5,201 nt of DNA from a virus (lineage: Duplodnaviria > Heunggongvirae > Uroviricota > Caudoviricetes). The DNA lies in the IMG/VR virus record IMGVR_UViG_638341084_000014; one strand, written 5' to 3'. The notes beneath the pieces are model-generated. The model did not search any database. It had not been told where the DNA came from and saw only the letters and a list, made by a program, of their open reading frames with translations. The translations under genes and the position numbers were made by a program. Position 1 is the stretch's first letter. Each line of letters begins with the position of its first letter. Of the stretch, positions 4,486 to 5,201 are shown piece by piece.

Positions 4486-4539
4486 CTGGTTATTCCCCAA
4501 CAACAAGGATTCGGTTAATCTGGATATCCCCAACAACAA
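4486..4539. repeat. Two direct repeats, R1 4486-4506 (CTGGTTATTCCCCAACAACAA) and R2 4520-4539 (CTGGATATCCCCAACAACAA), immediately upstream of the cassette gene
   Basis: Seen directly in the sequence. R2 contains the perfect palindrome GGATATCC. R2 ends 14 nt before the candidate GTG start at 4554. Confidence 0.65.
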
Positions 4540-4553
4540 TAAGAGTATTCAAT

Positions 4554-5069
4554 GTGATCGCTGAATTAACGGCAGCAATGACGGCTATTCGTGAAACAGC
4601 CCAGATTGCAAAACTAATGAACGAGGCAAAAACTCAAGCTGAAGTAAATGCGGCTATTGGTGAGCTGAACTCAAAGCTTGCGTCTATTCAGCGCGAATGC
4701 GTGTCTCTCGTTGAACTGGTGGGCTCTTATCAAGAAATAAATGCTTCTCTCAAAGCTAAAATTGCAGAATTCGAAAACTTTGAGGCTCAGACGGAAGGCT
4801 ATATCCTTAACCAACTTGAGTCGGGTACTTTTGTATACTCGAAGGAGGTAATCGTGAACGGTGGCAGCATAACCATGCATCTTTGCCCAAAATGTTTTGG
4901 ACAAAAGATAGTATCGATACTTCAACCATTCCCGGTTAGCGAAGATGAGCTTTTTCATAAAAGCAGGTGCCTCCACTGTGAAAATAAGTTTCTGATGAAT
5001 AAAAATCCGGATTACGTATCGCCTCCATCCATTGAGGAGTTGTCCAGAAAACTTAACGGCAATCTGTAG
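4554..5069 (+). CDS. Hypothetical protein: N-terminal coiled-coil plus C-terminal CxxC...CxxC zinc-ribbon-like domain (moron-type accessory gene); start uncertain (GTG 4554 or ATG 4578)
   Basis: A long ORF ends at TAG 5067-5069. The N-terminal 88 codons of the track ORF (from 4290) are Arg/Pro-rich, lie in GC-rich sequence and are judged non-coding. From 4554 the translation becomes protein-like: heptad-rich (AIRETAQIAKLMNEAKTQAEVNAAIGELNSKLASIQRE...) followed by CPKC...24 aa...CLHC. An AAGAG motif lies 8 nt upstream of GTG 4554. The region is visibly AT-rich relative to its flanks and is followed by an intrinsic terminator. Confidence 0.7.
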   Translation: MIAELTAAMTAIRETAQIAKLMNEAKTQAEVNAAIGELNSKLASIQRECVSLVELVGSYQEINASLKAKIAEFENFEAQTEGYILNQLESGTFVYSKEVIVNGGSITMHLCPKCFGQKIVSILQPFPVSEDELFHKSRCLHCENKFLMNKNPDYVSPPSIEELSRKLNGNL

Positions 5070-5076
5070 ATTACTA

Positions 5077-5093
5077 CTGTTGTGGATATCCAG
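5077..5093. repeat. Inverted copy (R3) of the upstream repeat, 8 nt after the cassette gene stop codon
   Basis: CTGTTGTGGATATCCAG has reverse complement CTGGATATCCACAACAG, which matches R2 (CTGGATATCCCCAACA) at 15 of 16 positions and includes the same GGATATCC palindrome. Confidence 0.6.
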
Positions 5094-5108
5094 ATTGTTA
5101 AAGAGCTA

Positions 5109-5132
5109 AGCGTCCTGTAGGGCGCTTTTTTG
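5109..5132 (+). terminator. Rho-independent terminator of the cassette gene
   Basis: A 7-bp stem (AGCGTCC / GGGCGCT, one G-U pair) with a 4-nt loop (TGTA) is followed by TTTTTTGTTG on the plus strand, 40 nt after the stop codon. Confidence 0.65.
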
Positions 5133-5201
5133 TTGCTAACGAATCATCCTGGACTTCATATGCCCCAGGCGGCTACTTCGTGGGCGTCCTGCCTGTTCGT
5201 T

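What the first reader, a model, noticed from the sequence alone, without database searches (positions are those of the whole stretch)
4486..5135. Compositionally distinct single-gene cassette bracketed by inverted repeats and encoding a coiled-coil/zinc-ribbon protein
An AT-rich gene of about 170 codons (4554-5069) sits between GC-rich flanks, which points to separate acquisition (a moron). It is bracketed by near-identical 16-bp inverted repeats: R2 at 4520-4535 and R3 at 5077-5093, with a degenerate direct copy R1 at 4486-4506. Each carries a GGATATCC palindrome, and the unit ends in its own intrinsic terminator. The protein combines a coiled-coil with a CPKC...CLHC zinc-ribbon, an architecture I cannot assign to any characterised family. 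In prophage early regions such cassettes often encode superinfection-exclusion, abortive-infection or anti-defence functions. The inverted repeats could instead be recombination sites (an invertible or mobile cassette) or operators for a dimeric regulator.
Basis: partly seen in the sequence, partly recalled or inferred. Interest (0 to 1): 0.8.

Follow-up and report, generated by a model that had tools for sequence, protein, structure and literature searches.

The report
Rip1-type phage-defence gene in sieB slot
The bracketed gene is a prophage copy of the recently described Rip1 pore-forming anti-phage defence family, and its flanking repeats belong to a portable control region of the same type as the sieB/sas antisense-RNA region of phages P22 and lambda, so it is a new example of known things rather than a new kind of element.

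Summary
The sequence features are real: a GTG-start ORF at 4554-5069, a 26-nt inverted repeat (4517-4542 / 5071-5096), an exact 13-nt direct repeat (4494-4506 / 4527-4539) and an intrinsic terminator (5108-5127). The protein is no longer unassignable. It is a distant member (27% identity) of the Rip1 family ("ring interacting pore 1", Patel et al., Nature 2026; PDB 9OOX). The support is Foldseek probability 1.0, a profile E-value of 1e-19 against the PDB, and hhalign probability 99.9%. The gene lies antisense inside the leftward early (PL) operon next to cI. That is the slot occupied by sieB in lambda and by Rip1 in HK446. The left repeats and an upstream hairpin align collinearly with the published P22 sas antisense RNA. 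On the + strand they carry a weak promoter-like signal (TTCCCC-17-TAATCT) and a CA-rich leader. On the - strand they would encode a sas-like RNA. The same scaffold carries three unrelated cargo families, always in one orientation (202 of 202), and no empty site was found. This argues against an invertible or site-specifically mobile cassette. The compositional argument is weak. The function of the right-hand inverted copy (R3) is unresolved. Verdict: a new member of known kinds, of moderate interest.

The parts
4454..4483 (.). Element H (GCCTG-N13-CAGGC overlapping CCAC...GTGG). On the - strand it corresponds to the 3' stem-loop of the P22 sas RNA. In relatives with a single leader hairpin ('class A'), on the + strand it supplies the -35 and spacer of an extended -10 promoter.
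   Evidence: Near-invariant upstream of homologues with only 46-62% protein identity. Aligns with the 3' part of P22 sas. In L328 the scanner calls TTTACC-16-TATACT with TG. In the window the -10 position reads ACCTGG, which is dead by consensus. There are only 2 compensatory pairs, both in one sequence. Folding z-scores are weak.
4486..4512 (.). R1: the first copy of TCCCCAACAAC. On the + strand it holds the -35-like TTCCCC (4493-4498). On the - strand it forms a hairpin CCUUGUUGUU-GGGG-AAUAACCAGG.
   Evidence: stem covaries; the U.G to C.G changes fit the - strand; it aligns with the loop hairpin UUCUCG-CUGUAGGGGUACA-CGAGAA of P22 sas.
4516..4521 (+). -10-like hexamer TAATCT, 17 nt after TTCCCC.
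   Evidence: TAATCT is invariant, or replaced by TATAAT, in divergent scaffolds, and the spacer length stays at 16-18. Lambda sieB has TACCCC-17-TAAACT and HK446 has TACCCC-17-TAAAAT. The consensus scanner does not call it. This is an inference.
4517..4542 (.). R2: the left arm of the inverted repeat, with the second TCCCCAACAACAA (4527-4539). The predicted mRNA 5' end lies at about 4526-4529, followed by a CA-rich leader.
4440..4560 (-). Candidate sas-like antisense RNA spanning the start codon, R2, R1 and H. Ends are approximate.
   Evidence: Collinear alignment with the 127-nt P22 sas RNA sequence published in PMC13397905. No promoter or terminator is called on this strand. Transcription was not shown.
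4554..5069 (+). Rip1-family gene (171 aa): N-terminal long helices plus a C-terminal beta-rich CxxC...CxxC zinc-ribbon domain.
   Evidence: phrog_1244. AF2 pLDDT 91. Foldseek 9oox_L/M E 5e-7. PDB profile E 1.1e-19. hhalign 99.9%.
5071..5106 (.). R3 (an inverted copy of R2) plus the conserved GTTAAAGAGC. Together they form the 3' scaffold block shared by all cargo types.
5108..5133 (+). Intrinsic terminator of the cargo transcript.
   Evidence: 8-bp stem plus T-run, + strand only. Conserved in most scaffolds.

Best explanation
The segment is a prophage moron placed antisense inside the leftward early (PL) operon of an SfV/PhiR49_1-type lambdoid prophage. This is the slot that holds sieB in lambda and Rip1 in HK446.

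The cargo is a Rip1-family protein. By homology it would sit inert in the lysogen. It would assemble around a ring-shaped oligomer of an infecting phage (small terminase or portal) and insert its N-terminal helices into the inner membrane, killing the cell before the phage matures.

The left-hand repeats are not cassette boundaries as such. They are a diverged copy of the sieB-type control region. On the + strand this is a weak promoter (TTCCCC-17-TAATCT) whose transcript would begin at the second CCCCAACAAC. On the - strand it is a sas-like antisense RNA. That RNA would carry the complement of the mRNA 5' end twice: once linear, and once in the loop of a hairpin. It would end in element H.

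By analogy with P22 sas/sieB, leftward transcripts made by an induced or a related superinfecting phage would silence or re-programme translation of the defence gene.

The right-hand block (R3 plus terminator) closes the unit. Cargo is swapped between these conserved blocks by ordinary recombination.

Shown: protein homology, anatomy, mosaic breakpoints, collinearity with sas. Inferred: promoter use, existence and action of the antisense RNA, the trigger, and any role of R3.
For: Protein:
- The Foldseek top hits are HK446 Rip1 in complex with T6 small terminase (9oox_L/M; E 4.7e-7 and 7.6e-7, prob 1.00, TM 0.73 by target). The next hit has E 0.2.
- The A1 profile against PDB sequences gives E 1.1e-19 over residues 5-156. 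BLASTP gives 27% identity, E 4e-11.
- hhalign against HK446, 689R2, HK620 hkaP, JBD30_030 and a Pelagibaca phage protein gives 99.9%, E 4.5e-32.
- The four Cys are invariant in both alignments.
- The superfamily holds 2,651 clusters at 50% identity, nearly all of 145-180 aa.
- Rip1 biology is taken from PMC13434031 section 5.

Context:
- In PhiR49_1, cI, its terminator and PL (TTGACA-16-CATAAT, 11 of 12) lie just to the right and read leftward.
- HK446 Rip1 is antisense between N and cIII. Lambda sieB is antisense between N and ral. JBD30_030 is antisense between its neighbours.

Control region:
- The window - strand 4432-4566 aligns along the whole P22 sas RNA, with 50 invariant columns in 8 sequences.
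- Lambda, HK446 and HK620 have H plus two ACCCCTACAG copies.
- The 17-nt spacer is kept across motif types.

Exchange:
- Breakpoints fall at 4537 / 5075 (SfIV), 4483 / 5138 (SfV) and 4446 / 5106 (O157).
- The cargo families are Rip1-like 124, ECs1072 55 and two 2TM families 23.
Against: - No canonical sigma-70 promoter is called on either strand of 4000-5201.
- The 5' module folds no better than shuffled sequence (z +0.95 on the + strand, +1.25 on the - strand). The window's sas-like stretch has z 0.16, against -1.79 for P22 sas.
- Strand assignment from wobble pairs is confounded by CA-rich composition and is mixed in the CCCCTACAG type.
- At 27% identity to the characterised protein, the trigger and even the phenotype could differ. 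PADLOC (2023), Pfam and NCBIfam give nothing.
- R3 has no counterpart in lambda or P22 and is unexplained.
- R2-R3 complementarity shows no locus-specific co-variation: -25.0 within loci against -24.4 kcal/mol across loci.
- The primary Rip1 and sas papers could not be read.
Confidence: 0.7

Rival explanations
1. R2 and R3 are sites for a site-specific recombinase. The segment is then an invertible switch, or an integron-like or transposon-like mobile cassette.
For: A true inverted repeat brackets the variable cargo, and the SfIV breakpoints fall exactly at its inner edges. The left end has two direct copies and the right end one inverted copy, as in some transposon ends.
Against: In 202 of 202 scaffold instances the cargo is in one orientation. 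No empty or fused site turned up in viral contigs. In the sampled listing of E. coli genomes, every full-coverage hit shown was in two pieces. Breakpoints differ between comparisons: inside the repeats, outside them, and 70 nt further out. No recombinase is linked. The left repeats have a homologous explanation in sieB/sas.
Confidence: 0.05
2. R1, R2 and R3 are DNA operators for a host or phage regulator. It would bind at -35, at +1 and at the gene end, and repress the cassette by looping.
For: The repeats sit at -35 and +1, three helical turns apart. The motif is duplicated in concert in four or more motif types (CCCCAACAAC, CCCCTACAG, CCCCAATGC, TTCCACAGTC). Conservation is of sequence rather than of pairing.
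Against: The motif is absent from the cI/cro operator region, which uses GGTACA-type sites. The same scaffold occurs in prophages with different repressors (SfV-type, Rac-type). The R1 stem co-varies, which points to a folded nucleic acid rather than a fixed protein site. No candidate regulator was found.
Confidence: 0.12
3. R2 and R3 pair in RNA. Either the cargo mRNA closes 5' to 3', or PL read-through transcripts form a long-range stem that loops out the antisense cargo and is processed (for example by RNase III) to release the sas-like RNA.
For: The predicted duplex is -25 kcal/mol, against -9.7 for shuffled partners, in all 48 distinct scaffolds. In relatives with a single leader hairpin, the equivalent left arm pairs locally just before the Shine-Dalgarno sequence.
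Against: Pairs are not compensated: AATCCGG with CCAGATT in L077, GGATTTCC with GGACATCC in L097. Within-locus and cross-locus energies are equal. If transcription starts near 4527, the mRNA lacks most of the left arm.
Confidence: 0.13

Closest known systems
Rip1 (ring interacting pore 1) of phage HK446 and Pseudomonas JBD/D3112-type prophages (Patel et al. 2026, Nature 651:1060; PDB 9OOX)
   Same: Size of about 165-170 aa. N-terminal long helices plus a C-terminal beta-rich domain with CxxC...CxxC. Full-length profile and fold match. A single prophage gene transcribed against its neighbours. In HK446 it sits in the same PL-operon slot and has the same upstream element H.
   Different: Only 27% identity to HK446 Rip1. 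It forms a separate subfamily (phrog_1244; 19 clusters at E<=1e-30), apparently confined to Enterobacterales among the named homologues. The leader motif differs (CCCCAACAAC, not CCCCTACAG), and there is an extra 3' block (R3 plus terminator). No phenotype, trigger or oligomer was tested.
P22 / lambda sieB with its sas antisense RNA and Esc (Ranade & Poteete 1993, recalled from my own knowledge; sas sequence from PMC13397905)
   Same: Same genomic slot and orientation. The upstream region is collinear: element H, a hairpin whose loop repeats the motif, a -10-like box, then a second motif copy at the predicted mRNA start.
   Different: The cargo is unrelated to SieB. The motif sequence has diverged. 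No internal Esc-type start has been established (only an ATG at codon 9). The antisense transcript has not been demonstrated here. Lambda and P22 have no R3.
Morons of lambdoid phages (Juhala et al. 2000, from my own knowledge)
   Same: An extra gene with its own terminator and putative promoter between backbone genes, replaced by other genes in relatives.
   Different: The flanks themselves are a conserved, reusable scaffold shared by unrelated cargos. The 5' flank doubles as an antisense-RNA template.
IS10 RNA-IN / RNA-OUT (from my own knowledge; analogy of mechanism only)
   Same: The 5' end of the mRNA is complementary to the loop of a stem-loop in the antisense RNA, which could speed pairing.
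   Different: No sequence relationship. Here it is an inference from anatomy.

Membership tests
Rip1 (ring interacting pore 1) | Full-length sequence or profile homology to characterised Rip1 proteins | tested here: met
   PDB profile E 1.1e-19, residues 5-156 against 15-160 of 164. BLASTP 27%, E 4e-11. hhalign 99.9%, E 4.5e-32. Reciprocal tblastn from HK446 Rip1 finds this gene in PhiR49_1, E 6e-5.
Rip1 (ring interacting pore 1) | Fold: N-terminal helices plus a C-terminal ring-contacting domain as in 9OOX | tested here: met
   AF2 pLDDT 91.1. Foldseek prob 1.00, TM 0.53-0.73 by target, 120 aligned columns.
Rip1 (ring interacting pore 1) | Four conserved cysteines (zinc ribbon) | tested here: met
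   C111, C114, C139 and C142 are invariant in 43 homologues. The equivalent columns are invariant in HK446, 689R2, HK620, JBD30 and Pelagibaca.
Rip1 (ring interacting pore 1) | Amphipathic N-terminal helix able to enter the membrane | tested here: inconclusive
   The hydrophobic moment reaches 0.40-0.44 for residues 7-30 and 0.41 for 37-54, similar to HK446 Rip1 (0.35-0.42). There is no threshold or experimental calibration.
Rip1 (ring interacting pore 1) | Dodecamer around a phage small-terminase or portal ring, pore formation, abortive-infection phenotype | not testable with these tools
   Known for HK446 and Pseudomonas Rip1 only through PMC13434031.
sieB-type promoter / sas antisense RNA module | Collinear similarity to the P22 sas RNA | tested here: met
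   Alignment A5: 8 sequences, 50 invariant columns, 71% mean column identity. sas sequence from PMC13397905.
sieB-type promoter / sas antisense RNA module | Two copies of the G-rich motif, one in a hairpin loop, followed by the 3' stem-loop H | tested here: met
   GUUGUUGGGG occurs twice. The R1 hairpin has a GGGG loop in the - strand MFE. Stem covariation. H is conserved.
sieB-type promoter / sas antisense RNA module | An antisense transcript is actually made and changes translation of the sense gene | not testable with these tools
   No - strand promoter or terminator is called. PL read-through would supply the sequence.
sieB-type promoter / sas antisense RNA module | Internal in-frame start giving an Esc-like antagonist | not tested
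   An ATG at codon 9 (4578) is common in homologues, but nothing shows it is used.
Moron | Own terminator, own promoter, and replacement polymorphism between backbone genes | tested here: inconclusive
   Terminator met. Replacement met. The promoter is only a non-canonical TTCCCC-17-TAATCT, not called by the scanner.
Invertible segment / site-specific cassette | Both orientations, or empty sites, found in relatives; a linked recombinase | tested here: not met
   0 of 202 inverted. No fused site in viral contigs. All full-coverage hits shown in the sampled E. coli listing were in two pieces. No recombinase within the unit.

The most novel reading that the evidence does not exclude
The scaffold is a portable, antisense-gated socket for defence genes. 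Unrelated toxic cargos (Rip1-like, ECs1072, 2TM, and SieB or Rip1 in the CCCCTACAG version) share one leader. The sas-like RNA of any phage carrying that leader type would then act as a master key, silencing all resident cassettes of the same type. Motif types (CCCCAACAAC, CCCCTACAG, CCCCAATGC, TTCCACAGTC) would define cross-immunity groups. R3 would pair with R2 in PL read-through transcripts so that processing releases the key RNA on induction.
Probability: 0.2. Interest if true: 0.75.

Novelty: new member of a known kind. Interest (0 to 1): 0.42.

Why it matters
It assigns a widespread "hypothetical" prophage gene to a defence family with a solved mechanism. Both cassette flanks, spaced as for a cargo of this size, occur in 502 of 5,426 complete E. 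coli genomes; cargo identity was not checked for each. An O157 variant also exists.

It also shows that characterised Rip1 (HK446), lambda and P22 sieB, and several unknown cargos share one upstream region of the sas antisense type. This suggests a testable route by which related phages escape Rip1-type abortive infection. It also gives a simple sequence handle (element H plus a duplicated motif) for finding more exclusion genes in lambdoid prophages.

Tried and rejected
- Pfam, NCBIfam and PADLOC gave no family for the protein.
- The cI-operator idea was rejected: OR and OL use GGTACA-type sites, and the repeat motif is absent there.
- A resemblance of R3 to a DnaA box (ATATCCACA) was dropped, because the CACA part is not conserved in R3 elsewhere.
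- A 22-codon upstream ORF (4450-4518, MCLLLATSGEVDLVIPQQQGFG) was dropped. Its frame is not kept across variants, and HK446 stops after 4 codons.
- The empty-site search (TTAATCTGG-N0-30-CCAGATTGTTAAAGAGC) found nothing. A fused-flank BLAST listed only two-piece hits among the full-coverage rows shown.
- Evidence for H as a stable RNA structure is weak: 2 compensatory pairs in one sequence and poor z-scores.
- Rfam has no family for the sas region, in the window or in lambda, HK446 or HK620.
- The Rip1 primary paper and the 1993 sieB/sas papers are not held.
- hkaP literature gave no expression data.

Full report
**What is in the window.**
The window is the left arm of a lambdoid prophage of the SfV/SfIV/PhiR49_1 type.
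- The 3' part of an IS66-family transposase gene (ORF 72-773, open to the window's left edge) lies next to a truncated integrase (971-1282, - strand).
- It is followed by xis and homologues of yfdT, S, R, Q and P, all on the - strand up to 4083.
- Phage PhiR49_1 is 99.7% identical over window 988-5201.
- In PhiR49_1, cI lies immediately right of the window. It is followed by its terminator and a strong leftward promoter, TTGACA-16-CATAAT (11 of 12), flanked by the same GGTACA-type half-sites as the cI/cro region.
- PL therefore reads leftward through the finding. The finding is on the opposite strand.

**Check of the observation.**
All the coordinates hold.
- The ORF 4554-5069 starts with a GTG that is conserved in homologues, with an AAGAG Shine-Dalgarno 8 nt upstream.
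- The inverted repeat is 26 nt at 85% complementarity (4517-4542 / 5071-5096), with a perfect 13-nt core.
- The direct repeat TCCCCAACAACAA is exact at 4494-4506 and 4527-4539.
- The terminator 5108-5127 is called on the + strand only.

Two statements need correction.
- The gene (42.8% GC) is no outlier among the prophage genes (43-51%). The flanks are the GC-rich parts (55-56%), and they are non-coding regions carrying conserved hairpins or an sRNA-like match.
- The GGATATCC palindrome is not what is conserved.

**The protein.**
- Pfam, NCBIfam and PADLOC are silent. PHROGs places it in phrog_1244, function unknown.
- 123 clusters of homologues carry no functional name. Those with organism names are Enterobacterales.
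- A 43-sequence alignment shows an N-terminal helical half and a C-terminal half with four invariant cysteines. The AlphaFold model is confident (pLDDT 91).
- Against the PDB, only two chains pass E<=0.001. Both belong to 9OOX, HK446 Rip1 bound to the T6 small terminase (E 5e-7, probability 1.00).
- The family profile hits the same protein by sequence at E 1.1e-19 over the full length. Pairwise identity is 27%.
- A profile-profile comparison with HK446, 689R2, HK620 hkaP, JBD30_030 and a Pelagibaca phage protein gives 99.9%.
- An exhaustive HMM search finds 2,651 clusters at 50% identity, nearly all of 145-180 aa, but only 19 at E<=1e-30. This is a distinct subfamily of a large superfamily.
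- According to the review PMC13434031, Rip1 is a prophage protein that is harmless alone. It forms a 12-mer ring around the 11-mer small-terminase ring of an infecting phage (portal in Pseudomonas escapers) and makes a membrane pore that aborts infection. I could not read the primary paper.

**The slot.**
- HK446 Rip1 sits antisense between N and cIII.
- HK620 hkaP lies in the same place.
- Lambda sieB lies antisense between N and ral.
- JBD30_030 is antisense between its neighbours.
- The window gene occupies the equivalent place in a phage group with no N gene annotated between cI and yfdP.

**The repeats in comparison.**
Mosaic breakpoints fall at the repeats:
- SfIV shares everything up to 4537 and from 5075 on, with different genes between.
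- SfV shares up to 4483 and from 5138 on, with yet another insert and no R sites.
- An O157 Rac-like prophage shares only 4446-5106.

In loci whose protein is only 46-62% identical, the roughly 105 nt upstream and the block GGATATCCAGATTGTTAAAGAGC plus terminator are far better conserved than the coding sequence.

A scan for R2 found 202 scaffold instances in the held loci (not de-duplicated). They carry four cargo classes: Rip1-like 124, ECs1072 family 55, and two families of 2TM proteins (14 and 9). Every cargo reads from R2 towards R3.

No fused "empty" site exists in the viral contigs. In the sampled listing for 5,426 E. coli genomes, every full-coverage hit shown was in two pieces. 502 genomes have both flanks joined into one match, about 740-765 nt apart in the rows listed.

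R2-R3 pairing energy is the same within and across loci (-25.0 against -24.4 kcal/mol; shuffled -9.7). The inverted repeat is therefore a conserved feature without locus-specific co-variation.

These results argue against inversion or site-specific cassette capture. They favour exchange by recombination within conserved functional flanks.

**What the left flank is.**
- The upstream element H (4454-4483) and a duplicated motif also precede HK446 Rip1, HK620 hkaP, 689R2 and lambda sieB. There the motif is ACCCCTACAG, twice, 34 nt apart.
- A scan for H alone found it in front of dozens of unrelated small ORFs.
- In the versions with a single leader hairpin, H is followed by TATNCT with T1, A2 and T6 nearly invariant. 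The scanner calls an extended -10 promoter there: TTTACC-16-TATACT with TG.
- In the two-unit versions, including the window, that -10 is lost (ACCTGG). A second promoter-like signal appears instead: TTCCCC-17-TAATCT here, TACCCC-17-TAAAAT in HK446, TACCCC-17-TAAACT in lambda, and TTCCCC-17-TATAAT in L229. The spacer length is kept although its sequence varies, and the second motif copy starts 6-7 nt after the -10.
- This supports a + strand promoter whose mRNA begins with the motif. It remains an inference, since the scanner does not call it in the window.

**The link to sas.**
- The published P22 sas RNA (127 nt; PMC13397905) is the reverse complement of exactly this kind of region. It runs from just inside sieB, through the second motif copy and a hairpin whose loop carries the first copy, to H and about 17 nt beyond.
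- The window's - strand 4432-4566 aligns with it end to end (50 invariant columns in 8 sequences).
- The R1 hairpin co-varies, and some changes (U.G to C.G) fit the - strand. The CA-rich composition biases that test, and the CCCCTACAG type gives mixed signals.
- sas is described as an antisense RNA that switches translation within sieB. From memory of Ranade & Poteete 1993, it lets P22 escape its own exclusion system.
- By analogy, the finding's R1, R2 and H would form a sas-like gene overlapping the Rip1-like promoter and leader. PL read-through would also supply the same antisense sequence.
- No - strand promoter or terminator is called, and the window's stretch is not unusually stable. The transcript therefore still has to be shown.
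- Rfam has no family for this region.

**What remains unexplained.**
R3, the inverted copy of R2 next to the terminator, has no counterpart in lambda or P22. It is conserved in all cargo types. In SfIV it precedes a leftward 68-codon ORF. Elsewhere it could be a relic, an operator, or one arm of a long-range RNA stem. None of these could be tested.

**Verdict.**
The protein belongs to a family published in 2026, and the left repeats belong to a control region known since 1993. The modular scaffold with exchangeable cargos, and the sharing of a sas-type region by Rip1, SieB and other genes, are the parts I did not find described in the searches I ran. They make specific experiments possible.

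Noticed in passing
window 5131-5201 (- strand), continuing to PL just beyond the window (L005 5024-5140): A roughly 70-nt structured leader lies between PL and the cassette terminator. It is conserved next to at least four different immunity/operator types. 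A 5-bp hairpin shows many compensatory changes (CCTGG/CCAGG, CCGGT/ACCGG, CCCCA/TGGGG, CCCGG/CCGGG and others), and the loop GGCAUAUGAAGU is conserved. There is no Rfam match. No N gene is annotated in these phages between cI and yfdP, so it could be a put-like cis element.
   Followed up: partly
window 4219-4442 (- strand): The GC-rich intergenic region matches Rfam STnc100 below threshold (40.3 bits, gathering score 47). It contains paralogues of the cassette's own H and R1 (H0 at 4314-4345, R0 at 4406-4423). STnc100/PasD-type prophage sRNAs may therefore be related to sas-type modules.
   Followed up: partly
loci L228-L328 (e.g. L328 7809-7836, L316 3572-3640): Element H precedes dozens of unrelated small ORFs in enterobacterial phage contigs. 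In the single-hairpin form it makes an extended -10 promoter (TTNACC-16-TG-n-TATNCT). This is followed by a co-varying hairpin with a CA-rich loop, whose 3' arm overlaps the Shine-Dalgarno sequence.
   Followed up: partly
L002 3503-3937 and 3940-4115; loci L183, L187, L197, L206 etc.: Alternative cargos occupy the same scaffold. One is the ECs1072-family protein (NF033230, E 1.7e-46) with a convergent 68-aa ORF. The others are two families of about 150-aa two-transmembrane proteins, with weak PADLOC '2TM effector' hits (E 0.004-0.009). All are of unknown function.
   Followed up: partly
window 72-773 and 971-1282: The 3' part of an IS66-family transposase gene lies next to a truncated integrase (only the first 103 codons remain). 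This prophage copy is probably unable to excise.
   Followed up: no
L005 (PV340568.1) 4052-4183, 4237-4965, 5056-5172: The deposited annotation of PhiR49_1 extends the Rip1-like ORF about 70 codons upstream, through the conserved non-coding module. It also calls two small ORFs over the STnc100-like region and the PL leader. These calls are probably spurious.
   Followed up: no
L084 / L089 about 2600-3516 and L193: Some contigs carry two cassettes in tandem, each starting with its own H element (two Rip1-like genes in Trabulsiella; two different cargos in L193).
   Followed up: no
L225 2290-2403 (- strand): An RprA-like Rfam match below threshold (50.2 bits, gathering score 70, E 0.001) overlaps element H upstream of the 689R2 Rip1 gene.
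   Followed up: no
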